From Candidatus Methanophagales archaeon (GTDB lineage: Archaea; Halobacteriota; Syntropharchaeia; Alkanophagales; Methanospirareceae): a stretch of 64,000 bases of DNA. The stretch spans positions 973 through 64,972 of the forward strand of contig JAUVZJ010000005.1 in NCBI GenBank assembly GCA_030602585.1. Direction: 5' to 3'. Made by a program: the position numbers and the translations under genes. Shown in pieces: positions 3-17,819 of the stretch. Each line of letters starts with the position of its first letter. The first letter of the stretch is position 1. Below the pieces are notes generated by a model that was given only the letters and a program-made list of their open reading frames with translations, had not been told where the DNA came from and ran no database searches.

Positions 3-89
3 AGAGACCCAACGAAGAAAGTAAGCGAAGAGTACGATGAGTCTGTCTTCGTGAGCACGTTGGTGATGGAGACGAGGGGGGCTGAATGA
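3..89 (+). CDS. 3' end of upstream gene, partial, product unknown
   Basis: The frame is open from the window edge. Stop TGA at 87-89 overlaps the cooC ATG by 4 bp (ATGA coupling). Confidence 0.25.
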   Translation, partial: RDPTKKVSEEYDESVFVSTLVMETRGAE

Positions 90-865
90 AGAAGATAATC
101 GTTACAGGGAAGGGAGGGGTAGGAAAGACGACAATCATCGCAACGCTCTCGAGGTTATTAGCAAGGGAGGGGCATCGGGTTTTAGTGATAGACTGCGACC
201 CAAGCATGAATCTTGCGATGTCACTTGGCGTTTCGCTTTCTGATGTCCTCCCTCTTGCTGAAAATAAAGCGAATATCCATGCGAAGTTGGAGCTGGACCT
301 GGACGATGAACATGCGCATGAAAATGGAAACGAAATCGAAATAGACGAAGTCATCGAGGACTATATTGTCGAAACGAAGGATGGAGTGAAGTTGATTGTA
401 ATGGGAACGATTCCTTATGGTGGTTCCGGCTGCCTGTGTTCATCCATTGCGCTGGTGAAGCTGCTGATAGGATACATTGCATCTGGAGATAACGATTTTG
501 TCATGGTGGATTCTCAAGCAGGAGTTGAAATCTTTGGCAGGGGGCTGGCATCGGAGTTCGACTTTACTCTTGTCATTACAGAACTGATGCCAAAGGCAAT
601 CGAAGTGACAAGGCATGTGATGACGCTATCAAGGGACCTGGGTGTTAAGAAGCAGATTGTAATCGTGAATAAGGTTGAAGATGGCACGGAATGTGAGACA
701 ATCTCACGAGAACTGGGGCTCAATGCAGACCAAATGTATTCTGTGCGATGCGACAAGAAAGTCATTGAGGCGGATAAGAAGGGGCTTCTGATTCTCGATT
801 ACGCACCGCAGGCATCAGTTGTAGAGGATATACAAAGGATAAAAGAAGAGATACTGGAGGGTTAA
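86..865 (+). CDS. cooC: CooC/AcsF-family Ni-insertion ATPase (MinD/ParA fold) for CODH/ACS maturation
   Basis: Deviant Walker A GKGGVGKTT and a CDP motif. A CxC-type motif GCLCSS is positioned like the CooC Ni site. There is a His/acidic insert DDEHAHENG. Confidence 0.7.
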   Translation: MKKIIVTGKGGVGKTTIIATLSRLLAREGHRVLVIDCDPSMNLAMSLGVSLSDVLPLAENKANIHAKLELDLDDEHAHENGNEIEIDEVIEDYIVETKDGVKLIVMGTIPYGGSGCLCSSIALVKLLIGYIASGDNDFVMVDSQAGVEIFGRGLASEFDFTLVITELMPKAIEVTRHVMTLSRDLGVKKQIVIVNKVEDGTECETISRELGLNADQMYSVRCDKKVIEADKKGLLILDYAPQASVVEDIQRIKEEILEG

Positions 866-872
866 ATTTAAA

Positions 873-1073
873 ATGTGCGAATTTGTTGTGTATTTAGAGG
901 AAAATGGGAGTAAAGAAAGAGAAGTGGTGGCAAGGAAGATAATCAAGGCAAAGAAGAGGGATGGAAAGACTGTTCTGATGGATACATCTGGTAATGTGAC
1001 ACCGGTTGAGCATGTAAGTATCGAGGTGGTAGATACGCTTATGCAGGAGTTGATCTTGAGAAAGGAGAGATGA
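873..1073 (+). CDS. cooT: CooT-like small nickel-binding protein
   Basis: 66 aa, begins MC (Cys2 is the CooT Ni ligand). It lies 8 bp downstream of cooC and matches the length of characterised CooT. Confidence 0.45.
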   Translation: MCEFVVYLEENGSKEREVVARKIIKAKKRDGKTVLMDTSGNVTPVEHVSIEVVDTLMQELILRKER

Positions 1074-1094
1074 AGATCGAAAAAGAAGTGAAAA

Positions 1095-1908
1095 ATGGAA
1101 AAAGAAAAGTTTGAATCAGCCAGGGTAAAGGAGAAGATAAAAGAATACTGGGATCGCACAAAGGAGCACGCTTTCTTCAAAGATGATGCGGAAGAAGAGG
1201 CATGGAGGAACTCGCTTCGTGAAGAGTTTGGTGTTGATGGAGAAAAACTAAAAATATTGGACGTTGGTACTGGCAACGGTTCATTAGCTCTCCTTCTCGC
1301 CGAGATGGGACATGATATTGTAGGAATTGACGTCTCAGAGGGAATGCTATCAGTAGCAAGAAAGAAGGCAAAGGAAAGAGGGGTCAACCCTAATCTAAGG
1401 ATTGGTGATGCCGAATCGTTGGATTTTGAAGACGAGTATTTCGATGCAGTTGTCAGTCGGATTGTCCTCTGGACGCTTCCTCATCCTGAGACGGCAATTA
1501 GCGAATGGAGGCGAGTGTTGAAGCCCGGCGGGAAGGTGCGGGAAGGTGTACACATTTGAAATCGATTCGCCTGGTAAAAGGAAAGAAACAGGTAGAAAGA
1601 TCAAGAGGAATCTGGGATTGCTCTTGATCACGATAATTGAGCGGAAGAATGCCTGGAGCAGAATGGCAGATTACGGTGAGGATATAAAGGAAAATCTCCC
1701 ACTGTGCTACGATAAAGCTTCTTCAAGTGCTATCAATAAGGTGGAACTCTTCAGGAAGGGTGAATTCGAAGATGTGACGCTCTTCAAGATGGACGAGGTA
1801 AACGAGATACTCAATAAACAGGAGGAAGTTCCGTTAAGATACAAACTCGTATGGGGTGACTTCGGTGATCGTGTGTGGTACTATATTAGGGGCTGTAAAC
1901 CTGTGTAG
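1095..1908 (+). pseudogene. class I SAM-dependent methyltransferase (Methyltransf_11) with C-terminal extension, frameshifted
   Basis: Motif ILDVGTGNG plus EWRRVLKPGGKV. A 10-bp tandem direct repeat (gggaaggtgc/gggaaggtgt at 1530-1549) shifts the frame. Deleting one copy joins ORFs 1095-1559 and 1546-1908 into a protein colinear with the 1917-2699 paralog. Confidence 0.7.
1530..1549. repeat. 10-bp tandem duplication causing the frameshift in the methyltransferase gene
   Basis: gggaaggtgc followed by gggaaggtgt. Removing one unit restores the KPGGKVYTFEIDSPGK reading. Confidence 0.7.
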
Positions 1909-1916
1909 GTGATAAT

Positions 1917-2699
1917 ATGAACGACATAAAGAATAAGATAAAGGACTACTGGAATGAAAGGTCCTCAACTTTTGACCTTTCCCCAGGTCATGTTATAGGT
2001 AGCAAAGAGGAAAGAGAAGCATGGGTATCTCTTTTTCAAGACAAATTTGGCAAAGGAATACAAAAAATACTCGATATTGGTGCTGGAACTGGCTTTCTTT
2101 CTCTTATTTTGGCTGAGATGGGATATGACGTTGTTGGTGTTGACATTTCAGAAGAGATGTTAGAGAGCGCGAAGAAAAAAGCGGTGGATCGAGGGCTTGA
2201 ACTAAAAGTCGAGTTCAAATTGGGTGATGCTGAAGCTCTGCCCTTTAAAAGTGGGTTTTTTGACGCAATTGTAAATAGAGCTGTCCTATGGACTCTCCCT
2301 GAACCGAAAAAAGCACTCAGTGAATGGAAACGCGTGTTAAACCCTGGTGGAAAGCTCTGTTTCTTCCTTCACGAACCACATAACAATGGAATAACACAAC
2401 GCTTACGACGGCAACTTGGGAATGTTCTAATCCTCTTTATAGAGAGGAGAAATCCATGGCATTCTCTTTATAATAAGAAATTGGGTGTGGAACTTCCTTT
2501 TAGAGGCGGTGTAGAACCTTCAGTAATAACGGAGCTTTTAGAGGATGCCGGGTTTGAACAGGTCTCTGCCAAGCCGATGCACGAAATAAGCAGGTTAAAA
2601 ACCGAAAAAATGCCTTTATGTTACAGAATAGCTCACAACCACAACCATATTCAATACTGTTATACTGCCGTTAAACCAGAACCAGAAGGAGGCGAATAA
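1917..2699 (+). CDS. class I SAM-dependent methyltransferase with conserved C-terminal RNPWH-containing domain
   Basis: ILDIGAGTG SAM motif, VLWTLPEP and EWKRVLNPGGK. The C-terminal IERRNPWHSLY segment is shared with paralogs at 2709, 4697 and 1095. Confidence 0.75.
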   Translation: MNDIKNKIKDYWNERSSTFDLSPGHVIGSKEEREAWVSLFQDKFGKGIQKILDIGAGTGFLSLILAEMGYDVVGVDISEEMLESAKKKAVDRGLELKVEFKLGDAEALPFKSGFFDAIVNRAVLWTLPEPKKALSEWKRVLNPGGKLCFFLHEPHNNGITQRLRRQLGNVLILFIERRNPWHSLYNKKLGVELPFRGGVEPSVITELLEDAGFEQVSAKPMHEISRLKTEKMPLCYRIAHNHNHIQYCYTAVKPEPEGGE

Positions 2700-2708
2700 A
2701 AAAGCGAA

Positions 2709-3149
2709 ATGAAAATAAAATCCGAAGATAGAGAAATAAAAAATATTATCAATCGTCATCTTCTCTGGACACTGCCAAATCCTGAGAAGGCGATGTCCGA
2801 GTGGAAACGTGTTTTGAAACCAGAAGGTAAAGTGCTAATAATTGATGGAAGTTGGGGCGATTACAACAGGTTACGTAGACAGGTCTGGCGTTATCTCGTC
2901 TCTATGCCTTTGATTTTAATCACGGAGCGAAGGAATCCATGGCATGGGCATTATGGCAGGGATATTGAGAAACAATTACCAATGAGGCACAGAAAACGCC
3001 CGCAGGCGGATATTGAACTTCTTGAGAATCTCGGATTCAACGTGGATGTGATGGGAGTATCAATCCCAAGAACCCAGTCGTTTCTCGACTCACTGAAATA
3101 TGGCTATTGGAGTAAGCAGTTTTTGGTAAAGGGAGTTAAGGTTAAATGA
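2709..3149 (+). CDS. stand-alone paralog of the methyltransferase C-terminal domain (no SAM-binding domain)
   Basis: Aligns to residues ~110-251 of the 4697-5452 protein (NRHLLWTLPNPEKAMSEWKRVLKPEGKVLIIDGSW...RRNPWHGHY...KRPQADIELLE). It starts only 10 bp after the preceding gene, so the N-terminal Rossmann part is absent. Confidence 0.55.
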   Translation: MKIKSEDREIKNIINRHLLWTLPNPEKAMSEWKRVLKPEGKVLIIDGSWGDYNRLRRQVWRYLVSMPLILITERRNPWHGHYGRDIEKQLPMRHRKRPQADIELLENLGFNVDVMGVSIPRTQSFLDSLKYGYWSKQFLVKGVKVK

Positions 3150-3164
3150 AGGAGGTAATAAAAA

Positions 3165-4709
3165 ATGTCGACTAGAAAGAAAATTAGCACTGGTATAGCA
3201 ATATGCTTGGTACTGCTGAGCAGTATAATGTTGGGGTGCATAGAACAAGGCACTCAAAACTCAAGACAAACATTAACGATTGGATATGGCAAGGATACAA
3301 ATGTTGCTTCTCCGAAAATGATGGATTTCATGCCAGAGATGATGGTTCTGGAGAGGCTCATAGAATACAAAGATGGTGAAGTACTGCCAAGTCTGGCAAC
3401 TTCGTGGGACATCCAGGATAACAGCAAGACGATAGTTTTTCATTTTAAAAAGGACATTAAATTCTCGGATGGAAGCCCATTTACTGCTGAAGATGTAAAA
3501 TTTACATTCGATAGGCTGAAAGCACTGAAATATTACCATTGGACTGAAGTTGATCGAATAAAAAGTGTAGAAGTGATTGATCCACATACGATAGCTTTTC
3601 ATTACGAGGATGGGAAAGAAGGATACATTGCATTGACTGCTTTTGGGGAATATCATTGCAGTATTATGAGTCCCGTATCGGTTGAACCAAAGGGAGATGT
3701 CAAAGAAAAAATCGTGAATCCCATCGGAACTGGTCCTTGGAAGGTAGACGAGTATGTAAAAGATCAGTACACGATATTTGTGCGGAACGAGATTTATCAT
3801 GGCGAAAAACCAAAATTGGATAAGATTATTGTTAAAGTTATACCAGATGCCGAGACAAGGGTCTTGGCTCTCAGATCGGGCGATGTGGATATGATTGTTG
3901 ACTATTACCATGGTGGATCCAGCTATACTCCTAGAAATTTGTTAGAGCCATTGAAAAGCGAAGGATTCAATGTAATCAAAAATGAGATGCCGATGACCAC
4001 GATAATTAAGTTCAATTACAAAAAAGAGCCGTGGAACGATGTGAGAGTTAGAAAAGCCGTAAACTATGCAATCGAGAAGGATGAGGTTTCGGCACTCTTC
4101 GATAACTGGGTGAATCCGGCAAGACACGGATTGTATAGTGAACAAGGACCCTCCATAAAAGAGGTAAAGGTAGAAGCATATACCAACGATATAAATAAAG
4201 CAAAGACCTTACTTAAGAATGCAGGCTATGAGGAATTGAAAGCAGACCTCGTATTGCAGGGCGAAAATCCCGATGAGGTTAAGCTTTGCGAACTTATACA
4301 GGCACAACTCAAAAAAATTGGCATTCAGGTGAAGCTGAGCGTATTGGAGGGTGGTGCATACAGCGAAAGAAGGAATAAAGGAGATTATGATCTTATGGTA
4401 TATTATATTGGCGGTCCCGAAAGGCGCAGCTACACGAGAACGGACGGCAGGTTTAATCCAAACGCTCCTGAGTTTGGGTACGGGGCATACGATGATCCTG
4501 AGTTGTCAGATGTCCTTGAGAAGGCTGTATCATCTTTCGATGGCAAGGAGCGTCAAGAGGAATTCAAACAGTTTTACCAACTGCTCCACGAGAAGGCAGG
4601 TGTCGTTCCACTCTACTATGATGCAGTGTTTATTGTAGCAGATAAGAAGGTGAAAGGGATCAAATATGTAAGCTCAGAGCCTTGCTTTAGCGGGGTGTGG
4701 ATAGAATGA
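3165..4709 (+). CDS. ABC transporter substrate-binding protein, family 5 (NikA/DppA/OppA-like), lipoprotein
   Basis: Signal peptide with archaeal-type lipobox LLSSIMLGC. Family-5 solute-binding-protein fold motifs (LATSWD, KFSDGSPFTAEDVKFTF). It sits upstream of nikBC-like permeases. Confidence 0.8.
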   Translation: MSTRKKISTGIAICLVLLSSIMLGCIEQGTQNSRQTLTIGYGKDTNVASPKMMDFMPEMMVLERLIEYKDGEVLPSLATSWDIQDNSKTIVFHFKKDIKFSDGSPFTAEDVKFTFDRLKALKYYHWTEVDRIKSVEVIDPHTIAFHYEDGKEGYIALTAFGEYHCSIMSPVSVEPKGDVKEKIVNPIGTGPWKVDEYVKDQYTIFVRNEIYHGEKPKLDKIIVKVIPDAETRVLALRSGDVDMIVDYYHGGSSYTPRNLLEPLKSEGFNVIKNEMPMTTIIKFNYKKEPWNDVRVRKAVNYAIEKDEVSALFDNWVNPARHGLYSEQGPSIKEVKVEAYTNDINKAKTLLKNAGYEELKADLVLQGENPDEVKLCELIQAQLKKIGIQVKLSVLEGGAYSERRNKGDYDLMVYYIGGPERRSYTRTDGRFNPNAPEFGYGAYDDPELSDVLEKAVSSFDGKERQEEFKQFYQLLHEKAGVVPLYYDAVFIVADKKVKGIKYVSSEPCFSGVWIE

Positions 4710-5452
4710 AGGCAAAGGATATTATCAAAGAGGAATGGGATCTGTTAGCTCAGGACTTTGATAACAAGGCAGGACATGGAATACGCACAAAAGAAGAAGA
4801 GGAAGCATGGATAAATCTTTTAACTCGTGCAATCGGGACGAAAAGACTCAAAATATTAGATGTGGGCTGCGGTACCGGTGTGATTGCATTACTTCTTGCA
4901 GAGATGGGTCATGAGGTAACAGGCGTTGATATATCGGAGAGAATGTTGGAACGAGCAAGGGAGAAAGCAAAGAGCATAGAGATTCCAGTGAAGTTCGAGT
5001 TCGGTGATGCAGAAGACCTTCCATTCGATGACGGAAATTTTGATGTTGTAGTTAATAGACATCTCCTTTGGACTATGCTAAACCCTGAGAAAGCAGTAAG
5101 CGAGTGGAAAAGGGTTTTAAAGCCAGAAGGCAGGGTGATAATAATCGATGGTAGCTGGAATGGTCAAGCACTACGCAAACGAGTTTGGCGTTTCCTTGCC
5201 GTGCCTCTGATTTTGATCACAGAGCATCGAATCCCATGGCATGGTCATTACGACAAAGATATGGAGAAGAACTTACCGATGAAGCAGAGAAAACGTCCTC
5301 AGGCAGACATCGAAATTCTTGAGTACTGCGGTTTTGTAGATATTAATATGTCGAAGGTGACAATTCCGATAACCAGAACGTTCATCGAACGGCTGAAGTA
5401 TGGTTACTGGGGAAGTGATGAGTTTTTGCTGAGTGCTACCAAATTGAAATAA
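4697..5452 (+). CDS. class I SAM-dependent methyltransferase with C-terminal His-rich domain, embedded in the nik-like operon
   Basis: ILDVGCGTG, DVVVNRHLLWTM, EWKRVLKPEGRV and a C-terminal HRIPWHGHY. It overlaps the binding-protein stop by 13 bp and ends 3 bp before nikB. Confidence 0.75.
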   Translation: MDRMKAKDIIKEEWDLLAQDFDNKAGHGIRTKEEEEAWINLLTRAIGTKRLKILDVGCGTGVIALLLAEMGHEVTGVDISERMLERAREKAKSIEIPVKFEFGDAEDLPFDDGNFDVVVNRHLLWTMLNPEKAVSEWKRVLKPEGRVIIIDGSWNGQALRKRVWRFLAVPLILITEHRIPWHGHYDKDMEKNLPMKQRKRPQADIEILEYCGFVDINMSKVTIPITRTFIERLKYGYWGSDEFLLSATKLK

Positions 5453-5454
5453 AA

Positions 5455-7861: not shown

Positions 7862-7903
7862 GTGACAAGTATCACAGAAGAGATTTAACAAGTTGATGGT
7901 ACG

Positions 7904-8830: not shown

Positions 8831-8869
8831 AACATCATACCTGAAAATAACGATTGAGGTGAAACTACA

Positions 8870-9191: not shown

Positions 9192-9381
9192 CCAATCAGT
9201 TGCTAAGCATACATAGCGCCGCTGATCCTATCTTATCTTTTCGCTTTTTCATAGTTGTAAGTAAGAAAAAAATCGAAAATAATATATATATCCTCAACAA
9301 TAAAATCTTAATATGTTTATGTATGAAATAAAATAAAGAGAAAAGCGTGAAAGTGAAAATAAAGAGGGAGGGAATAAAAGA

Positions 9382-12300: not shown

Positions 12301-12417
12301 CCCTGTATTCCACTCTACGACATCACGAAGCCGGTGGTATTCAAGAAGAACGTGCACGGCTTTAAGTTCGGACCGACCATGTTCGAGATGGATTTAAGTG
12401 ATGTGGAGATAGTGTAG
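9382..12417 (+). CDS. family-5 ABC substrate-binding lipoprotein made of two tandem complete binding modules (1011 aa)
   Basis: Lipobox LLSSMMLGC. Residues ~30-515 and ~520-1011 are colinear paralogs (AESWDVSPDGKTYTFHLRKGVKFHDGTQFNAEAA vs AESWEISPDGKTYTFHLRKGVKFHDRTPFNASVA; both end FKFGPT.F.MDLSDVE.V). Nucleotide identity between the halves is roughly 85%. Confidence 0.8.
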   Translation: MSSKKKIGIAICLVLLSSMMLGCIERETQESATTTQVEQVLTQGSYRDFKATAEGKNLVLEPLVGVDEWGNPIPGLAESWDVSPDGKTYTFHLRKGVKFHDGTQFNAEAARFFIEWQGMQKAYGKYMDRTEIVNDYTVRVYLEKYYYGFLGELGQLISPNAVEPAGDVNGKLVNYIGTGSFKLVEYKKDQEAVLVRNDDYWGKKPKLEKVIWKVVPDPYTQVLALKAGELDLIGAAEHHSCLPYIEIAKMQKDHDFEVMLHSYGRYQVIDFNFKKEPFNDVRVREAFNYAIDRELMVHTLFADLTKPAYLLGPPAPDWGPRNIEGYRYDPEKANQLLAEAGWRDTDGDGILDKDGKPFTCELIVPSGEANADVVAVFVQSELKKIGVQMKVTTMESGAAWDMRKKGEGEYDLFVHHCCGAAAMACLGIGGKYHSAYAYGKGVYHNDELDKQIEKAFTSLDKTERRKAFDQIWKILHEESPSIPLYDITKPVIFRNNMQGFKFGPTIFDMDLSDVEVVEYEVEAPTPTEQVLIQGAYKDFKQAVEGRNLVFETLMGVDEQGNSVPKLAESWEISPDGKTYTFHLRKGVKFHDRTPFNASVAKFSIEWSGKKKAFGKYIDWIEIVDDHTLRVYLKEYYRPFLLDLASEFSSKVISPNAVEPAWDVNGKLVNYIGTGPFKLADYKKDQEAVLVRNDDYWGKKPKLEKVIWKTVPDPYTQVLALKAGELDLIGAAEHHSSLPYIEIAELQKDPNLGVILHSYGRYQVIRFNCEKEPFNDVRVRKACNYAIDKELMVHTLFADIPKPSYRITDARFEWGPSNIDEKYYRYDLDKAKKLMTEAGWADTDGDGILDKDGKHFTCELIVPAGEANADVVAPFMQSELKKLGIQMNIITLESGAAGKRQKEGKYDLYVHHSGCLPSVAGYIEIGGNYHAGGWPHGYQNDTLDKLIEKAWTTPDEAEWRALCDQIWQLLHKEAPCIPLYDITKPVVFKKNVHGFKFGPTMFEMDLSDVEIV

Positions 12418-12436: not shown

Positions 12437-13387
12437 ATGATAAAGTTCATAGCCAGGAGATTGATGATAGCCGTAGTGGTAATGCTTGGCGTTTCATTAA
12501 TCTCCTTTTCTCTCGTTTTTTTTGCGCCAGGCAATCCTGCTGAGGTCATAATCAGGGCAGAAATTGGAGAAGAACCCACGCTTGAAGAAATCGAATTCTT
12601 TTTTCAAGAACATGGTTTAAAAGCTCCTTTTTTTACACAATGTGCGCAATGGTTGTATATGATTACACATGGCGACCTTGGAACTTCTTTCAGGACTGAA
12701 GAGCCAGTTTTGGTGGAATTTATTGACAGGTTCCCAGCAACCCTTGAACTGGCAGTAGCTGCGATGTTCATAGCGATACTCATATCCATTCCATTGGGAA
12801 TCCTCGCGGCGATGAAGCAAAACTCGGTTTTAGACCATGGCAGCAGGTTTGTAGCGCTGTGGGGTGTATCTATGCCGAATTTCTGGCTGGGCTTACTTTT
12901 AATTCTATTTTTCTCTGTCAGACTCGATTTGTTCCCATGTTTTGGCTATGGAGGCATAGAATATCTGATACTGCCAGCCATTACACTTGGAACCGGTATG
13001 ACCGCATCCCTCATGCGATTGATGCGTGCAAGCATGCTTGAGGTTTTACGCCAGGACTACATTAGAACGGCAAGAGCCAAAGGTTTGATGGAAAGGGTGG
13101 TGATATGGAAGCACGGTTTTAAGAACGCGCTAATTCCAGTAGTAACGGTTATGGGCATGCAAGTTGGTCATTTATTGGCTGGTGCTGTAATAGTCGAGAC
13201 AATATTTGCATGGCCCGGGGTAGGCAAATTTCTGGTTGATGGGATATACGCCAGAGACTATCCCGTAATTCAAGGCTTTATTTTGATTATTGCATTGTTC
13301 TTTGTTTTATCAAATTTGGCTGTGGATATTTTATACACCTATTTAGACCCGAGAATAAGATACGATGTAAAAAAGGGGATGAAATGA
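12437..13387 (+). CDS. nikB: ABC permease NikB/DppB family
   Basis: Paralog of 5455-6402 (FAPGNPAEV, IRTARAKGL). Confidence 0.85.
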   Translation: MIKFIARRLMIAVVVMLGVSLISFSLVFFAPGNPAEVIIRAEIGEEPTLEEIEFFFQEHGLKAPFFTQCAQWLYMITHGDLGTSFRTEEPVLVEFIDRFPATLELAVAAMFIAILISIPLGILAAMKQNSVLDHGSRFVALWGVSMPNFWLGLLLILFFSVRLDLFPCFGYGGIEYLILPAITLGTGMTASLMRLMRASMLEVLRQDYIRTARAKGLMERVVIWKHGFKNALIPVVTVMGMQVGHLLAGAVIVETIFAWPGVGKFLVDGIYARDYPVIQGFILIIALFFVLSNLAVDILYTYLDPRIRYDVKKGMK

Positions 13388-14226
13388 TGTCAATCGTTCA
13401 ACAACTTAAAAAGGATAAAATAGCAATGATTGGAGCGGTAATTATCCTTTTTCTTGCTGGTATTGCAATACTCGCTCCGCATATAACTCCATACGATCCA
13501 ATAGAGTTGGACTTAGAGAACCGCTTATCATCTTCAGATGTGAATCATTTGATGGGTACCGATAACCTTGGTAGAGATGTTTTAAGTAGGGTCATTTACG
13601 GGGCAAGGATTTCGCTGAGTATGGCAACAGTTGTTGTCGTGATTGTTATGCTTTTGGGTATAGCGATGGGAACCATTGCAGGATACCTTGGTGGTATTAT
13701 TGATGGAACAATAATGCGAGTGGTTGATGTTTTATTGGCATTTCCAAATATAATCCTGGCATTAGTTATTGCAGGTATTCTTGGTCCCTCTCTCACCAAT
13801 GTTATGATTGCTCTCAGTGCAATATGGTGGGTAGGTTACGCAAGAATAATTCGTGGTTCTGTTTTGTCTGTGAAGGAAAAAGAGTTTGTTGAGGCTGCGA
13901 GAGCAATGGGCTGCAGCGACACACATATCGCCATTCGCCACATACTGCCAAATGTTCTATCACCAGTAATAGTTCTCGCAACCCTTGATATGGGTCATAT
14001 AATACTTTCAATTGCAGCACTGAGTTTTCTCGGATTGGGTGCGCAACCACCGATACCTGAGTGGGGTACGATGCTCAATGAAGGAAGACCCTTTATGGAG
14101 ACCGCTCCGCATTTAATGATTTTTCCGGGATTGATGATCATGGTCGTAGTGTTAGCTTTCAACTTCCTGGGTGATGGACTGCGGGATGCACTGGATCCGA
14201 GGATGAAGGAGGTGATGATGAAATGA
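13384..14226 (+). CDS. nikC: ABC permease NikC/DppC family
   Basis: Paralog of 6399-7244 (NHLMGTDNLGRD). Overlaps the neighbouring gene by 4 bp. Confidence 0.85.
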   Translation: MMSIVQQLKKDKIAMIGAVIILFLAGIAILAPHITPYDPIELDLENRLSSSDVNHLMGTDNLGRDVLSRVIYGARISLSMATVVVVIVMLLGIAMGTIAGYLGGIIDGTIMRVVDVLLAFPNIILALVIAGILGPSLTNVMIALSAIWWVGYARIIRGSVLSVKEKEFVEAARAMGCSDTHIAIRHILPNVLSPVIVLATLDMGHIILSIAALSFLGLGAQPPIPEWGTMLNEGRPFMETAPHLMIFPGLMIMVVVLAFNFLGDGLRDALDPRMKEVMMK

Positions 14227-15164
14227 CATTGCTAAGTATACAAAATCTAAAAGTCCATTTCCATACCGAAGATGGTGCGGTAAGAGCAGTAAATGATGTA
14301 GATCTGGTGATAGAAGAGGGAGAGACCCTGGGCTTAATCGGGGAAACGGGATGCGGTAAAACTGTATTAGGGCTCTCGATACTGCGTCTGCTCTCTGAGA
14401 ACACAAAGGTAGAGGGTAAAATTTTATACAAGGGAAAAGATTTGCTCAAACTCAATGAGGGTGAGATGAGGAAGATAAGGGGAAAAGAGATAGCGATGAT
14501 ATTTCAAAATCCATTAACCTCGATGAATCCGGTTCTTACAATAGGAACACAAATTTCTGAGCCCTTTGAGTTGCACCAAGGCTTAAAAAAGAAAGATGCA
14601 ATACAAAAAGTGATTGCGATATTAAAGTTGGTGCGAATACCGTCACCATCGGAAAGAATAAATGAATATCCTCATGAGTTCAGTGGTGGAATGAGACAGA
14701 GGGCTATGATTGCGATGGGACTTGCTTGTGAGCCCTCATTAATCCTTGCGGACGAGCCGACCAAGGGTCTGGATGTCACGATACAAGCACAAGTTGTAGA
14801 CCTGATGAAAGAACTAACGACAAACTCCAAAACTTCTATGCTGCTGATAACTCACGATCTTGGTGTTGCAGCCGAGTTATGCGATAACATTGCAGTAATG
14901 TATCCCGGTGAAATCGTCGAATACGCAGATATTAAAGAATTGTTCAAAAACCCTAAACATCCATATACACAGGGTTTTCTTGGTTCTCTTCCAGGCAGAG
15001 GTTTAAAGCCAATGAATGGTATGAGTCCATCTCTAATTGATCTTCCAGAAGGGTGTAAATTCCATCCAAGGTGTCCATTCGCAAGAGAGAGATGCAAGAA
15101 TAAGCGACCAGAAATGGTAGAAATAGGGAAAAAACATTTTGTGAGGTGTTTCTTATATGATTAA
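14223..15164 (+). CDS. nikD: ABC ATPase NikD/DppD/OppD family
   Basis: Walker A GETGCGKT, signature FSGGMRQR, Walker B LILADEP, and a C-terminal oligopeptide-ABC Cys-rich tail. Confidence 0.85.
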   Translation: MTLLSIQNLKVHFHTEDGAVRAVNDVDLVIEEGETLGLIGETGCGKTVLGLSILRLLSENTKVEGKILYKGKDLLKLNEGEMRKIRGKEIAMIFQNPLTSMNPVLTIGTQISEPFELHQGLKKKDAIQKVIAILKLVRIPSPSERINEYPHEFSGGMRQRAMIAMGLACEPSLILADEPTKGLDVTIQAQVVDLMKELTTNSKTSMLLITHDLGVAAELCDNIAVMYPGEIVEYADIKELFKNPKHPYTQGFLGSLPGRGLKPMNGMSPSLIDLPEGCKFHPRCPFARERCKNKRPEMVEIGKKHFVRCFLYD

Positions 15165-16101
15165 AGTTGAAAACTTAAAGAAATATTTTTCAACTGGAAT
15201 GTTCAGCAAAAAATACGTTAGAGCGGTGGATGGCCTTAGTTTTGCGATTGAAAAGGGTGAAACCCTCGGTTTAGTAGGTGAGAGTGGATGTGGAAAAACA
15301 ACAGTTGGCAGATTGATTCTAAGGCTCATCGAGCCCACCGAAGGCAAAATCTTTTTTAAAAACACGAATATTCTCGAACTCAACAAGAAGGATTTAAGAA
15401 AGTTAAGACCCAAAATGCAGATAATATTTCAGGACCCCGATTCATCACTTGACCCAAGAATGAAAATAGGGGAAAGCATTGCAGAGCCTTTAAAACTGTA
15501 CAATATTGTTAGCAAAAATGGAAGAGAAGAAAAAATCTCAGAATTAATAGAGATGGTTGGATTAAATCCGGAACATATAAATCGCTATCCTCATGAACTC
15601 AGCGGTGGACAAAATCAAAGAGCGGTGATTGCAAGGATTCTTGCAATAAACCCTAAGTTCATAGTTGCCGACGAGCCAACATCTTCCTTAGATGTTAATG
15701 TGCAAGCGCAGATGCTCTTTTTACTGAAAAAAGTACGAGAAAAGTTTGGGCTTACCTGTTTATTTATTTCCCATGACCTGGAAGTAATAAAGGTTATGAC
15801 CGATAAAATCGCAGTGATGTATCTTGGAAAGCTGGTCGAAGTCGGAAAAACAAGCGATATATTCAATGGTGCAGTGCACCCGTACACACAGGCATTATTG
15901 TCTGCAATTCCTGTTCTGGACCCAGAGGCGAAAAGGAAAAGAATAGTGTTAGGGGGCGAAATCCCCAATCCAATCAATCCCCCATCTGGCTGTAGCTTCC
16001 ACACCAGGTGCCCTTACCGCGAAAGGATATGTGAGATCGAAGAGCCAATGATGATTGATATTGGAGATGGGCACCAGGTAGCCTGTCACCTAAATCGTTA
16101 A
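15157..16101 (+). CDS. nikE: ABC ATPase NikE/DppF/OppF family
   Basis: Walker A GESGCGKTT, signature LSGGQNQR, Walker B FIVADEP. Confidence 0.85.
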   Translation: MIKVENLKKYFSTGMFSKKYVRAVDGLSFAIEKGETLGLVGESGCGKTTVGRLILRLIEPTEGKIFFKNTNILELNKKDLRKLRPKMQIIFQDPDSSLDPRMKIGESIAEPLKLYNIVSKNGREEKISELIEMVGLNPEHINRYPHELSGGQNQRAVIARILAINPKFIVADEPTSSLDVNVQAQMLFLLKKVREKFGLTCLFISHDLEVIKVMTDKIAVMYLGKLVEVGKTSDIFNGAVHPYTQALLSAIPVLDPEAKRKRIVLGGEIPNPINPPSGCSFHTRCPYRERICEIEEPMMIDIGDGHQVACHLNR

Positions 16102-16126
16102 TACCTTTTCAGCTAATGCTATTATT

Positions 16127-17053
16127 ATGATAGAAGTGGAAAATTTAGTGAAAAAATTTGGAGATGCAACTGCTGTGGATGGGATCAGTTTCAAAGTAAG
16201 AAAAGGAGAGATATTTGGCTTTTTAGGACCCAATGGAGCAGGTAAAACCACAACAATCAATATACTGGTAGGTCTATCGCTTCCAAGTTCTGGAATTGCA
16301 AAAATAGCTGGACTCGACGTGACAAAACATCCAATAGGAATAAGAAAAAGACTTGGCATAGCAGCCCAGGCCGCATACTTCGACCACCATCTGAGCATCA
16401 AAGACAATCTTTTCTACCATGGATTGTTGTATGGTCTGCCCAGAAAAGAGCTCAAAAAAAGAGTGGATACCGCTTTACAGTGGAGCAAACTTGAAAAATA
16501 CAGGAATAAAAAATTTCACCAATTATCTGGTGGAATGCAAAGAAGGCTTGTTGTGGCAAGAGCAATGTTATCAGACCCGGAAATACTCTTATTGGATGAA
16601 CCTACAACCGGTCTTGACCCACAAACCAGAAGGCAGGTCTGGGAATTCATAAAGAATCTGAAAGAGGCAGGGAAAACAGTTCTCCTGACAACCCATTACA
16701 TGGAAGAGGCAGATCTTCTTTGCGACAGGATTGCTATTATTGACCATGGGAGAATTATAGCCAGCGGAACACCGAATGAACTAAAAAAGATGCTGGATAA
16801 AAATATTGTAATTGATATAACTTTAAATCCTGAAGTCGCAGGCGACCACATCAAAAGAGACTTAGACATTATCTCTGGTGTTAATTATGTAAGAATGGAA
16901 AGCAATAGAATAAAGATTGGAGTGGTTGATGATGCAATCGTAGAACAGGTATTAAAAAGCCTTATTATAAGAACTAAAATCAGTGAAATTAATATTATCC
17001 GTCCAACGCTTGATGATGTTTTTCTTCATCTAACTGGTAGGGAGATACGATGA
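16127..17053 (+). CDS. ABC-2 type exporter ATPase (DrrA/CcmA-like)
   Basis: Walker A GPNGAGKTT, signature LSGGMQRR, Walker B LLLDEPTTGLD. Confidence 0.8.
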   Translation: MIEVENLVKKFGDATAVDGISFKVRKGEIFGFLGPNGAGKTTTINILVGLSLPSSGIAKIAGLDVTKHPIGIRKRLGIAAQAAYFDHHLSIKDNLFYHGLLYGLPRKELKKRVDTALQWSKLEKYRNKKFHQLSGGMQRRLVVARAMLSDPEILLLDEPTTGLDPQTRRQVWEFIKNLKEAGKTVLLTTHYMEEADLLCDRIAIIDHGRIIASGTPNELKKMLDKNIVIDITLNPEVAGDHIKRDLDIISGVNYVRMESNRIKIGVVDDAIVEQVLKSLIIRTKISEINIIRPTLDDVFLHLTGREIR

Positions 17054-17054
17054 G

Positions 17055-17819
17055 ATGATTGCAAGAGTGATAAAAGCTATGCTTGCGGTATGGGAACGTG
17101 AAATGCATGAGTACATAAGCAATCTGCATGTAAATGCCATGCGTCTTGCAGTAGAGCCATTGCTATTCATTTTTATCTTTGGAATGGGACTTGGCAAGCG
17201 TGTGGTGATTGGAGACGTAAATTATTTATATTTCCTGGCACCGGGCATACTGTTTATGGTTGCGGTAAACAACAGTTATATGACAATATCAATGAGGCTC
17301 ATGATTGCACGAGACTGGGACAAAACATTGATTACTGCGCTCAGTGCTCCGATAAAACCCTTTGAGATTGTTCTTGGCTATGTGTTTGCAGGTGTAACTC
17401 AAGCACTGGCTGCATGCGCTATCTTTATTGTGTTGATGAATTATTTTTTAGGAATACCCTTTGGTTCCGTTTCCCTGATAGTGTTACTTATCATAGCAAC
17501 AGCCGCATTTTTCTCTTCCCTCGGAGTAGCGATATCCATGGTGCTGGATAATCCACATCATCTAATGGTTGTCACATCGCTTGTTGTCATGCCCATGAGT
17601 TTTTTTTGTGGGATATTTATACCTGTTACTGATCTTCCGAACTGGGTGCAGCCCGTTATAGAGGCAATTCCTCTTACCGTGGCGGTACAAGCAGCCAGAG
17701 CGATAGCATTATCAACGGGCAACCCTTATCTATGGCAAAATCTGGCGTATATTATCGCATTTACAATCGCAGTATTTTTGATAGGGTTGCATCTCTTTAA
17801 GAAAAAAGTAATTACTTGA
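17055..17819 (+). CDS. ABC-2 family permease
   Basis: 6 TM segments with ABC-2 topology. Translationally coupled to the 16127-17053 ATPase. Confidence 0.7.
   Translation: MIARVIKAMLAVWEREMHEYISNLHVNAMRLAVEPLLFIFIFGMGLGKRVVIGDVNYLYFLAPGILFMVAVNNSYMTISMRLMIARDWDKTLITALSAPIKPFEIVLGYVFAGVTQALAACAIFIVLMNYFLGIPFGSVSLIVLLIIATAAFFSSLGVAISMVLDNPHHLMVVTSLVVMPMSFFCGIFIPVTDLPNWVQPVIEAIPLTVAVQAARAIALSTGNPYLWQNLAYIIAFTIAVFLIGLHLFKKKVIT

What the first reader, a model, noticed from the sequence alone, without database searches (positions are those of the whole stretch)
86..17819. Nickel-handling island: cooC-cooT followed by two nik-type importers, one without ATPases
CooC-like and CooT-like Ni-insertion genes sit directly upstream of an operon reading binding protein - methyltransferase - nikB - nikC - methyltransferase - membrane protein, which has no nucleotide-binding subunits. 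A second nikABCDE operon with a full ATPase pair and an ABC-2 exporter follows. The first importer presumably borrows NikDE from the second operon, or is regulated separately. The density of Ni-related functions next to CODH maturation genes suggests a dedicated Ni supply module.
Basis: partly seen in the sequence, partly recalled or inferred. Interest (0 to 1): 0.5.

Follow-up and report, generated by a model that had tools for sequence, protein, structure and literature searches.

The report
Nickel uptake cluster with linked methyltransferases
A methane-oxidising archaeon keeps nickel-capture proteins, two nickel-type import pumps that appear to share one motor, nickel chaperones and an uncharacterised family of methyl-adding enzymes in one gene cluster; that enzyme family also sits beside metal-chelate importers in many unrelated microbes, which hints at an unknown step in metal uptake.

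Summary
They are CooC (CXC motif), CooT (Cys2), two NikA/B/C-type sets, one OppD/F-like ATPase pair and an ABC-2 exporter.

- CooT is not directly upstream of the first importer. Three methyltransferase (MT) genes lie between them, and two are broken.
- The second binding protein is a 1011-aa tandem double NikA.
- The second MT of "operon 1" has lost its start codon.
- The "membrane protein" is a CbtX-like Gate-domain permease.
- A DUF4198 gene (a family with a Ni-binding member) heads the array.
- No CODH gene is in the window.

A close relative has the simple operon DUF4198-CooC-CooT-3 MT-NikA2BCDE. The ATPase-less unit is a 6.1-kb block recombined into that operon, with scars. It is still under purifying selection. 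Relatives also carry ATPase-less SBP-NikBC sets and at most one NikDE pair in the DNA held, so ATPase sharing is plausible.

The new point is the MT family. In two MT-seeded scans, 58% of family members lie within 5 kb of Nik-type or Fec/Btu-type importer genes, against 2% of generic MTs. What the MTs do (ligand methylation?) and which metal is carried (Ni or Co) remain inferred.

The parts
1..85 (+). 3' end of a DUF4198 gene, the first gene of the array; the rest lies upstream of the window
   Evidence: L001 is 100% identical to window 1-7193 and carries the full gene. PF10670 scores 87.4 bits against a gathering score of 34. One DUF4198 family member binds Ni2+ with Kd 18 nM (PMC12537917) and another binds Zn (PMC12663993).
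86..865 (+). CooC-like Ni-insertion ATPase
   Evidence: CbiA/ArsA/NifH-type P-loop. Best PDB hit is CooC1 3kje, E 9e-21, with the CXC motif aligned. GKGGVGKT and GCLC are seen in the translation.
873..1073 (+). CooT-like small Ni chaperone
   Evidence: PF10133 scores 33.6 bits against a gathering score of 27, covering 1-62 of 66 aa. N-terminal Met-Cys. No PDB hit by phmmer.
1095..1908 (+). MT1, importer-linked class I SAM methyltransferase, split by a frameshift (ORFs 1095-1559 and 1546-1908)
   Evidence: Methyltransf_11 at 98.7 bits. A 10-nt insertion near 1528 relative to the intact 267-aa orthologue in L002. The same split is present in the independent assembly L001.
1917..2699 (+). MT2, intact member of the MT family (260 aa)
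   Evidence: Methyltransf_11 at 102 bits. Family alignment A2. AF2 model pLDDT 89.7. Foldseek neighbours are small-molecule MTs.
2709..3149 (+). MT3', MT with a 327-nt in-frame internal deletion that removes the SAM-binding motifs
   Evidence: Only Methyltransf_11 profile positions 57-95 remain. Deletion mapped against L002.
3257..9356 (+). 6.1-kb block inserted relative to the simple operon of close relative L002. It is bounded by duplicated SBP 5' (signal-peptide) segments at 3180-3263 and 9391-9474.
   Evidence: blastn of L002 against the window gives two segments, 1068-3815 to 1-2747 and 4539-11620 to 9357-16427. Repeat D10 is 79% identical.
3165..4709 (+). SBP1, NikA/CntA-like lipoprotein binding protein (514 aa)
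   Evidence: SBP_bac_5 at 279 bits. NCBIfam nikA 251, CntA 215, peptide families at most 145. PDB top hits are an entry deposited as 'Peptide ABC transporter, peptide-binding protein' (9pl3, 164 bits), then NikA and CntA at about 156. LGC lipobox, and no His416 equivalent by hand alignment.
4697..5452 (+). MT4, intact MT of the MT3 subtype (251 aa)
   Evidence: Methyltransf_11 at 105 bits. 58-61% identical to L002 MT3. Absent from the otherwise collinear L086, present in L026.
5455..6402 (+). NikB1 permease
   Evidence: NCBIfam Opp2B nickel permease 386 against cut-off 350. 61% identical to NikB2 with the EAA loop conserved. dN/dS 0.22 against L086.
6399..7244 (+). NikC1 permease
   Evidence: TIGR02790 nickel_nikC 361.7 against cut-off 358.45. 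68% identical to NikC2. dN/dS 0.15.
7244..7861 (+). MT5, short-type MT that has lost its start codon; probably inactive
   Evidence: The frame is open but has no ATG, GTG or TTG before 7415. The L086 orthologue (78% identical) starts MESRNTEIKDK after a 45-nt spacer.
7904..8830 (+). Gate1, CbtX-like (COG3366-type) Gate-domain membrane protein, a predicted secondary Co/Ni permease
   Evidence: PF07670 scores 25.9 bits, below the gathering score of 29.6. Paralogue of Gate2 at 39172-40143 (49 bits; blastp E 3e-27). A 53%-identical Methanosarcina homologue is named 'putative cobalt transporter in sulfate-reducing delta-proteobacteria', matching CbtX of PMC545781. AF2 pLDDT 82; weak CNT-like fold, TM 0.45-0.50.
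8894..9058 (+). Fragment of a FecCD-type permease N-terminus (recombination scar)
   Evidence: tblastn against residues 1-56 of the FecCD that follows Gate in Methanosarcina sp. DH2: 50% identity, E 5e-14.
9045..9191 (+). Fragment of a NikC C-terminus (recombination scar)
   Evidence: 90% nt identity to 7140-7242 (D8). tblastn against NikC1 residues 238-281, E 7.5e-21.
9382..12417 (+). SBP2x, tandem double NikA-like lipoprotein (1011 aa)
   Evidence: Two SBP_bac_5 stretches, 606 bits in total. Halves are 74-88% identical at nt level. Each half scores nikA 312 and 304 bits. PDB best hits are B. suis and E. coli NikA, and the His416 equivalent is conserved.
12437..13387 (+). NikB2 permease
   Evidence: Opp2B 389 against cut-off 350.
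13384..14226 (+). NikC2 permease
   Evidence: TIGR02790 360.1 against cut-off 358.45.
14223..15164 (+). NikD-position ATPase (OppD/DppD-like, with oligo_HPY)
   Evidence: ABC_tran plus oligo_HPY. Best NCBIfam match is OppD at 349 bits; nikD scores 240 against cut-off 318.7.
15157..16101 (+). NikE-position ATPase (DppF/OppF-like, with oligo_HPY)
   Evidence: ABC_tran plus oligo_HPY. nikE scores 253.5 against cut-off 332.55. With 14223-15164 it forms the only PepT-type ATPase pair in the 64 kb.
16127..17053 (+). DrrA-type ABC-2 exporter ATPase
   Evidence: TIGR01188 drrA 332 against cut-off 312. A DrrA-type ATPase follows nikE in L092 too. In L002 a truncated 100-aa ORF with no Pfam record starts 25 nt after nikE, where the DNA is collinear with the window up to 16427.
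17055..17819 (+). ABC-2 exporter permease
   Evidence: ABC2_membrane at 98.5 bits.

Best explanation
Window 1-17819 is a nickel (possibly nickel and cobalt) acquisition and delivery supercluster of an ANME-2/Methanosarcinales archaeon.

**Shown by sequence**
- An extracytoplasmic DUF4198 protein, from a family with a Ni-binding member.
- Two lipoprotein NikA-type binders, one of them a tandem double.
- Two NikBC permease pairs and a single OppD/F-type ATPase pair.
- A CbtX-like Gate-domain permease.
- The cytoplasmic Ni chaperones CooC and CooT.
- Five paralogous small-molecule-type SAM methyltransferases (two intact).
- An ABC-2 exporter.

**History**
Relative to the simple operon of a close relative (DUF4198-CooC-CooT-MT-MT-MT-NikA2-BCDE-...), a 6.1-kb module (SBP1-MT4-NikB1-NikC1-MT5-Gate1) has been recombined in between duplicated SBP 5' segments. 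It left a FecCD fragment and a NikC fragment as scars.

**Inferred mechanism**
1. Metal, free or as a chelate, is captured outside the cell by DUF4198 and the NikA modules.
2. It is imported through NikB1C1 or NikB2C2. Both are powered by the one NikDE pair. Gate1 may offer a secondary route.
3. It is handed to CooT and CooC for insertion into Ni enzymes or cofactor pathways.
4. The methyltransferases act in the cytoplasm on the organic ligand or cargo of the importer. The ABC-2 pump may remove the product.

Approximate confidence: metal-uptake and chaperone cluster about 0.8; ATPase sharing about 0.6; MTs acting on the imported ligand about 0.3.
For: - **Family assignments.**
- **Independent assemblies** confirm the sequence.
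- **Simple ancestral-type operon** in L002-L005, with insertion junctions mapped.
- **ATPase-less SBP-NikBC sets in other loci.**
  - L092: three sets, one NikDE pair, then DrrA/ABC-2.
  - L098: SBP-NikB-NikC-Gate-NikD-NikE, plus a divergent MT-SBP-NikB-NikC without ATPases.
  - L086: SBP-NikB-NikC-MT-Gate, then DUF4198.
- **Integrity of the ATPase-less unit.** Operon-1 genes are intact, with dN/dS of 0.15-0.27 against L086. The EAA coupling loops of NikB1/B2 and NikC1/C2 are conserved.
- **MT-importer link.** 40 of 69 family-type MT loci have Nik-type (26) or Fec/Peripla_BP_2-type (16) importer genes within 5 kb. The figure for MT-core-only controls is 1 of 59 (Fisher p 3e-13). Examples:
  - L089 and L095: MT in operon with Peripla_BP_2-FecCD-ATPase.
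  - L178, Methanosarcina sp. DH2: Peripla_BP_2-DUF4198-MT-Gate-FecCD-ATPase.
  - Bacterial MT-NikABCDE loci.
- **MT fold.** The neighbours are small-molecule MTs. The translations show no obvious N-terminal signal peptide or hydrophobic segment; this was read by eye, not run through a predictor.
- **DUF4198** binds Ni with nanomolar affinity in one member (PMC12537917).
- **CbtX** was predicted as a Co transporter and found in all five Methanosarcinales surveyed (PMC545781, PMC2667541).
Against: - No experiment or expression data are available.
- The rest of the genome could not be searched for another NikDE pair.
- The NikA modules fall below the NikA equivalog cut-off. The Arg137 loop is absent, and SBP1 lacks the His416 equivalent.
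- The ATPases are Opp/Dpp-like.
- No NikR site or riboswitch was found.
- Three of the five MT genes are damaged in this genome. The MT function is therefore at least partly dispensable or redundant here.
- Pairwise dN/dS cannot detect recent loss of function.
- The MT substrate is unknown.
Confidence: 0.6

Rival explanations
1. Cobalt or corrinoid supply and not nickel. On this reading the transporters, the CbtX-like permease and the methyltransferases serve cobalt or cobamide acquisition, linked to the CobN/ChlID chelatase cluster downstream. This is not mutually exclusive with a nickel role.
For: - The Gate1 family corresponds to CbtX, a predicted cobalt transporter (PMC545781).
- Downstream lie CobN (split), a ChlI/D-like 'putative cobaltochelatase' (TIGR02442, 798 against cut-off 779) and BtuC-like FecCD genes, with a second Gate paralogue between them.
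- In Clostridia locus L024 a cobalamin riboswitch (97.5 bits) heads a BtuFCD-like operon immediately upstream of an MT-MT fusion and NikABCDE.
- The best sub-threshold NCBIfam hits for the MTs include the corrinoid-protein-associated MT CpaM.
- B12-riboswitch-regulated NikABCDE-type systems are known (PMC2667541).
Against: - CooC (CXC) and CooT (Cys2) are nickel chaperones.
- A DUF4198 member prefers Ni (PMC12537917).
- The permeases pass nickel-permease cut-offs.
- The SBP2x modules keep the NikA His416 equivalent.
- A 566-nt gap with no riboswitch separates the L024 B12-controlled genes from the MT-Nik genes.
- No riboswitch was found in seven other bacterial loci or in the archaeal loci.
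Confidence: 0.25
2. The ATPase-less unit (3165-8830) is a non-functional by-product of rearrangement. On this reading it is a decaying partial transporter that does not borrow NikDE.
For: - The unit lies in a recombined 6.1-kb block with FecCD and NikC fragments at its end.
- MT5 has lost its start codon.
- MT1 and MT3 nearby are broken.
- An IS1634 transposase and a broken ABC-2 pair lie just downstream.
Against: - SBP1, MT4, NikB1, NikC1 and Gate1 are full-length.
- dN/dS is 0.15-0.27 against L086.
- The same unit without ATPases occurs in L086. ATPase-less SBP-NikBC sets also occur in L092 and L098.
- The unit is tightly packed and co-directional with upstream genes, with gaps of 42 nt or less.
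Confidence: 0.15
3. The methyltransferases build a secreted metallophore. On this reading the ABC-2 pump (or an MFS) exports it and the Nik systems re-import the metal complex, as in a staphylopine-like cycle.
For: - DrrA/ABC-2 genes follow nikE in the window and in L092, and an MFS gene sits among the MTs in L092. In L002 only a truncated, unannotated ORF occupies that position.
- Several distinct MT subtypes co-occur: MT1, MT2, MT3/4 and MT5 types.
- SBP1 scores well against CntA and lacks a direct metal-ligand His.
Against: - No nicotianamine-synthase, opine-dehydrogenase, NRPS or other scaffold-building gene is present in the 64 kb.
- Methylation alone does not make a chelator.
- The minimal conserved unit in most other loci is MT plus importer, with no exporter.
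Confidence: 0.15
4. The transporters carry peptides or another non-metal solute, the methyltransferases are unrelated neighbours, and the nickel flavour is coincidental.
For: - No SBP module reaches the NikA cut-off.
- The ATPases match OppD/DppF best and carry oligo_HPY.
- The top PDB hit for SBP1 is deposited as a peptide-binding protein.
- Family names for the PepT superfamily are unreliable predictors of substrate.
Against: - NikA is the best model for all three modules by more than 100 bits over the peptide families.
- The permeases pass nickel-specific cut-offs.
- The array also carries CooC, CooT, DUF4198 and a CbtX-like gene.
- The same parts recur together in L098 and L178.
- The MT-importer association is 58% against 2%.
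Confidence: 0.08

Closest known systems
NikABCDE of E. coli, and the S. aureus NikA (Opp5A) plus NikBCDE (Opp2) nickel importers of the PepT ABC family
   Same: - Same five-component architecture in 9382-16101.
- NikB and NikC pass the NCBIfam Opp2B and nickel_nikC cut-offs.
- The SBP modules score best against NikA. The closest solved structures for the SBP2x modules are B. suis and E. coli NikA.
- The His416 equivalent is kept in both SBP2x modules.
   Different: - The binding protein is a lipoprotein with two fused NikA modules (three in P0024).
- The Arg137 loop is absent, and W398/Y402 are replaced by HHCC or HHSGC.
- The ATPases carry oligo_HPY and are Opp/Dpp-like.
- There is a second SBP-NikBC set without ATPases.
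- No NikR site was found.
- Methyltransferases, CooC/CooT, DUF4198 and a CbtX-like permease lie in the same array.
Staphylopine system CntKLM-CntABCDF-CntE of S. aureus (opine metallophore synthesis, export and re-import)
   Same: A NikA/CntA-like binding protein and a PepT importer are encoded together with cytoplasmic SAM-using enzymes and an exporter. SBP1 scores 215 bits against CntA and lacks a direct metal-ligand His.
   Different: - No CntL/nicotianamine-synthase or CntM/opine-dehydrogenase homologue is present in the window.
- The SAM enzymes are Methyltransf_11-type methyltransferases.
- The exporter is ABC-2, not MFS.
- The CntA cut-off of 800 bits is far from met.
CooC/CooT(/CooJ) maturation factors of Ni,Fe-CODH (R. 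rubrum, C. hydrogenoformans)
   Same: CooC has the deviant Walker A and the CXC motif and matches ChCooC1 best. CooT passes the Pfam gathering score and has Cys2.
   Different: There is no cooS/cdhA and no cooJ in the 64 kb. The genes sit between a DUF4198 gene and importer genes, so they look like general Ni hand-off factors of an uptake operon.
CbtX (COG3366), candidate cobalt transporter predicted by Rodionov et al. 2004 and found in Methanosarcinales by Zhang et al. 2009
   Same: Gate1 is a multi-helix membrane protein of about 310 aa. Methanosarcina homologues carry that SEED-style name. The context is metal-related (PMC545781; PMC2667541).
   Different: CbtX was predicted from clustering with cbiK in delta-proteobacteria and has never been tested. 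Here it sits inside Nik-type or Fec-type ABC operons, next to an MT and DUF4198.
ABC importers that share an ATPase (for example MsiK serving several sugar permeases in Streptomyces; stated from general knowledge, not checked here)
   Same: Several binding-protein and permease sets per ATPase gene set.
   Different: Here the sharing is within the PepT (Opp/Dpp/Nik) family, involves a heterodimeric ATPase pair, and is only inferred from gene content.
ChuW/HutW, radical-SAM methyltransferases in anaerobic haem-uptake operons that release iron from imported haem (stated from general knowledge; functional analogy only)
   Same: A SAM-dependent methylating enzyme encoded with a metal-chelate importer, acting on the imported chelate in the cytoplasm.
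   Different: This is a different fold: radical SAM against class I Rossmann MT. The substrate is a different chelate. No homology is claimed.

Membership tests
CooC (Ni-insertion ATPase of CODH maturation) | Deviant Walker A P-loop (GKGGVGKT) | tested here: met
   MKKIIVTGKGGVGKTT in the translation. CbiA/ArsA/NifH-type P-loop Pfam hits.
CooC (Ni-insertion ATPase of CODH maturation) | Cys-X-Cys metal-binding motif aligned with that of ChCooC1 | tested here: met
   GGSGCLC aligns with GGSQCYC of 3kje, which is the best PDB hit (E 9e-21).
CooC (Ni-insertion ATPase of CODH maturation) | Encoded with a Ni,Fe-CODH (cooS/cdh) gene | tested here: not met
   No CODH/ACS family was found among the window ORFs scanned.
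CooC (Ni-insertion ATPase of CODH maturation) | Ni-dependent dimerisation and ATPase activity | not testable with these tools
   Requires biochemistry.
CooT (PF10133) | Score above the Pfam gathering threshold over the full domain | tested here: met
   33.6 bits against 27; residues 1-62 match profile positions 1-59 of 60.
CooT (PF10133) | Conserved Cys2 nickel ligand | tested here: met
   The sequence starts MCEFVVYL. The role of Cys2 is stated from general knowledge of RrCooT and ChCooT.
CooT (PF10133) | CooT fold | not tested
NikA (TIGR02294 nickel ABC substrate-binding protein) | Score at or above the curated equivalog cut-off of 393 bits | tested here: not met
   SBP1 251.3; SBP2x module 1 311.9; module 2 303.5. 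NikA is nevertheless the top family for all three.
   NikA and CntA models exceed Opp4A, DppA, GsiB and OppA by 60-200 bits. The PDB ranking for SBP2x module 1 is NikA (218-198), then CntA (180), then DppA (146). SBP1 is less clear against the PDB. This is an HMM-score proxy; no tree was built.
NikA (TIGR02294 nickel ABC substrate-binding protein) | His416 (E. coli numbering) metal ligand | tested here: inconclusive
   Conserved in SBP2x module 1 (..GGKYHSAY..) in the HMMER alignment to 1zlq. Conserved in module 2 (..GGNYHAGG..) by hand alignment. Absent from SBP1 (..RFNPNAPEF..) by hand alignment.
NikA (TIGR02294 nickel ABC substrate-binding protein) | Arg137 loop that binds the chelator carboxylate | tested here: not met
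   The 'LPRPF' segment of E. coli and B. suis NikA falls in a gap of SBP2x module 1.
NikB/NikC nickel ABC permeases | Scores above the NCBIfam nickel-permease cut-offs | tested here: met
   NikB1 and NikB2 score Opp2B 386.1 and 389.0 against 350. NikC1 and NikC2 score TIGR02790 361.7 and 360.1 against 358.45, and Opp2C 337 and 342 against 300.
NikD/NikE nickel ABC ATPases | Scores above the TIGR02770 and TIGR02769 cut-offs | tested here: not met
   240.3 against 318.7 and 253.5 against 332.55. The best matches are OppD/DppD and DppF/OppF, and oligo_HPY domains are present.
Complete ABC importer (for the unit 3165-8830) | Own nucleotide-binding subunits | tested here: not met
   No ABC_tran ORF lies between 3165 and 9381 on either strand. 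The nearest pair is at 14223-16101.
CbtX / COG3366 candidate cobalt transporter | Homology to proteins annotated as CbtX; Gate-domain membrane protein | tested here: inconclusive
   Gate1 scores PF07670 25.9 against 29.6. Paralogue Gate2 scores 49.2. The 53%-identical P0185 carries the SEED name. No COG model was available to test directly.
Opine-metallophore (Cnt-type) system | CntL (nicotianamine-synthase-like) and CntM (opine dehydrogenase) genes | tested here: not met
   No such Pfam family was found in any window ORF scanned. The CntA model scores 215-255 against 800.
Named methyltransferase families (UbiE/MenG, ArsM, CpaM, DVU_1556, BchM, BioC) | Score above any curated NCBIfam cut-off | tested here: not met
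   The best scores are 70-90 bits against cut-offs of 155-263. Matches cover only the SAM-binding core.
Importer-linked MT family (defined here) | N-terminal W..R..(F/Y)D..PGH helix and C-terminal ERRNPW lid, next to a metal-chelate ABC importer | tested here: met
   Alignment A2 gives the invariant and near-invariant columns. The motif is fully present in MT2 and recognisable in variant form in MT1, MT3, MT4 and MT5. 40 of 69 family-type loci lie within 5 kb of importer genes, against 1 of 59 controls.

The most novel reading that the evidence does not exclude
A previously unrecognised family of class I SAM-dependent small-molecule methyltransferases is a core cytoplasmic component of metal-chelate (Ni/Co) uptake systems in methanogens, ANME and anaerobic Firmicutes. 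It often occurs with DUF4198 and a CbtX-like permease. On this reading it methylates the organic ligand of the imported complex, so that the metal is released to chaperones such as CooT and CooC and cannot be chelated again. The spent ligand is then expelled by the adjacent ABC-2 or MFS exporter. This would be a release mechanism distinct from reductive or hydrolytic release, and analogous only in logic to ChuW.
Probability: 0.25. Interest if true: 0.8.

Novelty: new variant of a known kind. Interest (0 to 1): 0.52.

Why it matters
ANME archaea and methanogens need very large amounts of nickel for F430/MCR, CODH/ACS and hydrogenases, and of cobalt for cobamides. They live in sulfidic sediments, where both metals are scarce and strongly complexed. 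How they obtain these metals is poorly known.

This locus, with its relatives, defines a recurrent toolkit:
- DUF4198
- NikA-type or BtuF-type binders
- several permease sets per ATPase pair
- a CbtX-like permease
- CooC and CooT
- a dedicated methyltransferase family

The toolkit can be tested directly in genetically tractable Methanosarcina strains that carry it. If the methyltransferases process the imported ligand, that would add a new step to the biology of metal acquisition. It would also give a function to a widespread set of 'UbiE-like' genes, including those in human-gut Lachnospiraceae. The multi-module NikA fusions and the shared ATPase pair are also of interest for how ABC importers work.

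Tried and rejected
- **NikR-type operators.** I looked for inverted repeats upstream of the operons (window 8830-9400; the L002 and L086 leaders). Only AT-rich, low-quality repeats appeared.
- **Riboswitches.** An Rfam scan of the window and five related archaeal loci found none. Eight bacterial MT-Nik/Fec loci gave one cobalamin riboswitch, in L024, which is not directly in front of the MT-Nik genes.
- **PDB sequence searches.** CooT gave no hit. Gate2 gave no hit.
- **Foldseek of the Gate1 model.** It gave only a weak match to concentrative nucleoside transporters, E 0.1. I take this as consistent with a transporter fold and nothing more.
- **Foldseek and PDB searches of the MT.** They returned generic small-molecule MTs with TM scores of 0.67 or less, so no substrate can be inferred.
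- **Collection scans seeded with the MT alignment.** Those were recovered instead through exact-protein look-ups.
- **dN/dS as a pseudogene test.** The broken MT1 and MT3 remnants still give 0.15-0.56. The lesions are therefore recent, or the signal comes from the intact partner lineage. The test was not informative for them.
- **Pyrrolysine or selenocysteine read-through as an explanation for the split MTs.** I rejected this. MT1 is a true frameshift caused by a 10-nt insertion, and MT3 is an internal deletion.
- **MTs as F430-modifying or MCR-modifying enzymes.** Nothing found here supports this. There are no mcr or cfb genes adjacent, and the family also occurs in Firmicutes loci.
- **Literature.** Searches found no description of an MT-Nik or MT-Fec link.

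Full report
**What is there**

The + strand from 1 to 17819 is one co-directional array with very short gaps.

- **DUF4198 tail.** Window 1-85 is the tail of a DUF4198 gene. This is seen in L001, an independent assembly that is 100% identical to window 1-7193.
- **CooC and CooT.** 86-865 is a CooC-type ATPase. It has the GKGGVGKT P-loop, GCLC aligns with the CXC motif of C. hydrogenoformans CooC1, and that protein is the best PDB hit at E 9e-21. 873-1073 passes the CooT gathering score (33.6 against 27 bits) and begins Met-Cys.
- **The ATPase-less unit.** 3165-8830 reads SBP1, MT4, NikB1, NikC1, MT5 and a membrane protein. It has no ABC ATPase.
- **The complete importer and the exporter.** 9382-16101 reads a 1011-aa tandem double NikA-like protein, NikB2, NikC2 and two ATPases with oligo_HPY domains. 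16127-17819 is a DrrA/ABC-2 exporter pair.

**Organism and reliability**

Cluster look-ups place close relatives in ANME-2 cluster, Methanosarcinales and (one) Methanophagales MAGs. The window also carries formylmethanofuran:H4MPT formyltransferase.

Two independent Logan assemblies reproduce window 1-7193 and 7167-9966 at about 100% identity. They break only inside a repeated nikC 3' end. L086 independently confirms the nikC1-MT5-Gate1 join.

**Family tests**

- **Permeases.** They pass the nickel-specific NCBIfam cut-offs. Opp2B scores 386 and 389 against 350; TIGR02790 scores 361.7 and 360.1 against 358.45.
- **Binding-protein modules.** None reaches the NikA equivalog cut-off of 393 bits (they score 251, 312 and 304). 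NikA is still the best model for all three, CntA is second, and the peptide families are 60-200 bits lower.
- **SBP2x pocket.** For module 1 the best solved relatives are B. suis and E. coli NikA. The His416 equivalent is conserved, and by hand alignment also in module 2. The Arg137 loop is missing. W398 and Y402 are replaced by an HHCC motif (HHSGC in module 2).
- **SBP1.** It has no His416 equivalent. Its PDB ranking is ambiguous between a protein deposited as peptide-binding, NikA, CntA, HbpA and DppA.
- **ATPases.** They are Opp/Dpp-like and below the NikD and NikE cut-offs.
They are not triggered, but strict membership of NikA is not shown.

**History of the locus**

A close relative (L002-L005; 84-98% amino-acid identity, 91-93% nucleotide identity) has the simple operon DUF4198-CooC-CooT-MT(267)-MT(262)-MT(253)-double NikA-NikB-NikC-NikD-NikE. 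A truncated ORF starts 25 nt after nikE, at the position that the DrrA-type gene occupies in the window.

Against that operon, the window shows several changes.

- **Damage to the MTs.**
  - MT1 has a 10-nt insertion that causes a frameshift.
  - MT3 has a 327-nt in-frame deletion that removes the SAM-binding motifs.
- **An inserted block.** A 6.1-kb block (about 3257-9356) lies between two copies of the SBP signal-peptide segment, which are 79% identical.
- **Scars.** The block ends with a FecCD N-terminal fragment (8894-9058) and a NikC C-terminal fragment (9045-9191).
- **Location in a relative.** In L086 the same module (SBP-NikB-NikC-MT-Gate) lies upstream of DUF4198 instead.
- **Origin of the FecCD fragment.** In Methanosarcina sp. 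DH2 the MT-Gate pair is followed by FecCD within a Peripla_BP_2-DUF4198-MT-Gate-FecCD-ATPase operon, which accounts for the fragment.
- **MT5.** Comparison with L086 indicates a deletion of about 57 nt that removed the nikC stop, the spacer and the first seven MT5 codons.

Only MT2 and MT4 are intact in this genome.

**Is the ATPase-less importer real?**

SBP1, NikB1, NikC1 and Gate1 are full-length. Their dN/dS against L086 is 0.15-0.27. The EAA coupling loops of NikB1/B2 and NikC1/C2 are well conserved.

Multiple SBP-NikBC sets per NikDE pair recur in other loci:
- L092 (Methanosarcinaceae) has SBP-NikBC, then SBP-NikBC-MT-MT, then an MFS gene, then MT-MT-SBP-NikBCDE-DrrA-ABC2.
- L098 has MT-DUF4198-SBP-NikB-NikC-Gate-NikD-NikE, plus a divergent MT-SBP-NikB-NikC.

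Sharing of the single NikDE pair is therefore the most economical reading. It remains an inference, because the rest of the genome could not be searched.

**The membrane protein**

Gate1 is a paralogue of a second Gate-domain protein at 39172-40143, which lies between CobN and a ChlI/D-like gene. Methanosarcina homologues carry the SEED name for CbtX. CbtX is a candidate cobalt transporter predicted from context (PMC545781) and was found in all five Methanosarcinales surveyed (PMC2667541). The AF2 model (pLDDT 82) resembles concentrative nucleoside transporters only weakly.

**The methyltransferases**

- **A distinct subfamily.** They share an N-terminal W..R..FD.SPGH motif and a C-terminal ERRNPW motif. 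None reaches any curated NCBIfam cut-off.
- **Fold.** The MT2 model (pLDDT 89.7) is nearest to small-molecule MTs such as LahSB, phosphoethanolamine MTs, RebM/AtmM, TleD, MitM and TmtA.
- **Context statistic.** Two collection scans were seeded only with MT motifs.
  - Of the 69 loci whose match includes the family-specific N-terminus, 40 have importer genes within 5 kb. These are NikB/C-type in 26 and FecCD/Peripla_BP_2-type in 16.
  - Among matches to the generic SAM-binding core only, the figure is 1 of 59 (Fisher p 3e-13).
- **Taxonomic spread.** The linked loci span Methanocaldococcus, Methanocella, Methanothrix, Methanosarcina, Bathyarchaeia, Clostridia/Lachnospiraceae, Virgibacillus and Electrothrix.
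- **Other partners.** DUF4198 and Gate/CbtX proteins are further recurrent neighbours.
- **Literature.** I found no paper that describes this link.

**Mechanism**

What is shown is the parts list and its conservation. What is inferred is the following sequence:
1. Metal is captured outside the cell by DUF4198 (one family member binds Ni with Kd 18 nM; PMC12537917) and by the NikA modules.
2. It is imported through two permease pairs driven by one ATPase pair.
3. It is handed to CooT and CooC.

For the MTs, I consider the most likely role to be modification of the organic ligand or cargo of the importer. Three observations point that way:
- The minimal conserved unit is MT plus importer, with no exporter.
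- Two unrelated importer classes that both carry metal chelates are involved.
- The fold is of the small-molecule type.

A role in building a secreted metallophore is less likely, because no scaffold-forming enzyme is present.

Nickel versus cobalt is unresolved. CooC, CooT and DUF4198 point to Ni. CbtX, the downstream CobN/ChlID/BtuC-like genes and the B12 riboswitch next to the L024 counterpart point to Co.

**Verdict**

As described, the locus is a new variant of known Ni uptake and chaperone systems. Three points add value:
- the mosaic history of the locus;
- the multi-module NikA fusions;
- the statistically strong and, as far as I could find, undescribed coupling of a methyltransferase family to metal-chelate importers.

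Noticed in passing
window 9382-12417; P0024 (HJH25685.1), P0026, L002 4564-7614: The NikA-like binding proteins are fused in frame as tandem modules: two in the window and in L002 (1011-1016 aa), and three in a 1536-aa protein from a Methanophagales-labelled MAG. Only the first module has a signal peptide and lipobox. Methanosarcinaceae relatives (L092) have single modules.
   Followed up: partly
window 9382-12417 (about residue 420 of module 1 and the equivalent position of module 2): At the positions of E. coli NikA W398 and Y402 the modules carry His/Cys-rich motifs (FVHHCCGAA.. and YVHHSGCLP..), next to the conserved His416 equivalent. This may be a direct metal-binding site suited to an anoxic habitat.
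   Followed up: no
window 1095-1908, 2709-3149, 7244-7861: Three of the five importer-linked MT genes are damaged in this genome by three different lesions: a 10-nt insertion, a 327-nt in-frame deletion, and loss of the start codon through a deletion of about 57 nt. The orthologues in L002 and L086 are intact.
   Followed up: yes
window 17943-19469 (-), 20243-22189: An IS1634-family transposase (201 bits against cut-off 100) lies next to fragments of a second ABC-2 pair (an ABC_tran fragment and the C-terminal half of an ABC2_membrane). This suggests insertion-associated disruption just downstream of the intact exporter.
   Followed up: no
window 22579-45429: A second metal/tetrapyrrole-type cluster lies here. 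It contains a PGF-pre-PGF protein, four Peripla_BP_2 binders, another intact DrrA/ABC-2 pair, a SPASM-domain fragment, CobN, Gate2, a ChlI/D-like 'putative cobaltochelatase' (798 against 779 bits), a BtuC-like FecCD gene with its ATPase, and a NifH-family 'nitrogenase reductase-like' gene (453 against 350 bits; below the CfbC cut-off).
   Followed up: partly
window 35314-36906 and 36903-39074: CobN is encoded as two overlapping ORFs of 530 and 723 aa, covering profile positions 2-413 and 427-1089. It is either a genuinely split gene or a frameshift.
   Followed up: no
L024 5505-16597 (Clostridia MAG JALCQR010000004): A cobalamin riboswitch (97.5 bits) heads a Peripla_BP_2-FecCD-ATPase operon. 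This is followed by a 446-aa fusion of two MT domains and a full NikABCDE set. It is a bacterial counterpart that hints at a cobalt or B12 connection.
   Followed up: partly
L178 2802-9102 (Methanosarcina sp. DH2, WJBI01000005): A cohesin-domain gene precedes Peripla_BP_2-DUF4198-MT-Gate-FecCD-ATPase, in one orientation. This fits the report that ANME and Methanosarcinales binding proteins use dockerin/cohesin anchoring (PMC9012536).
   Followed up: no
L007 (Bathyarchaeia MAG JBNIDO010000027) 3142-10762: Five MT-family genes lie in a row, interleaved with Peripla_BP_2 and FecCD genes. This is the most extreme expansion of the family seen here.
   Followed up: no
window 31960-32385 (-), 45466-45873: A PIN-domain gene and a gene for a '23S rRNA intervening sequence protein' family member lie between the metal clusters. 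Their relevance is unknown.
   Followed up: no
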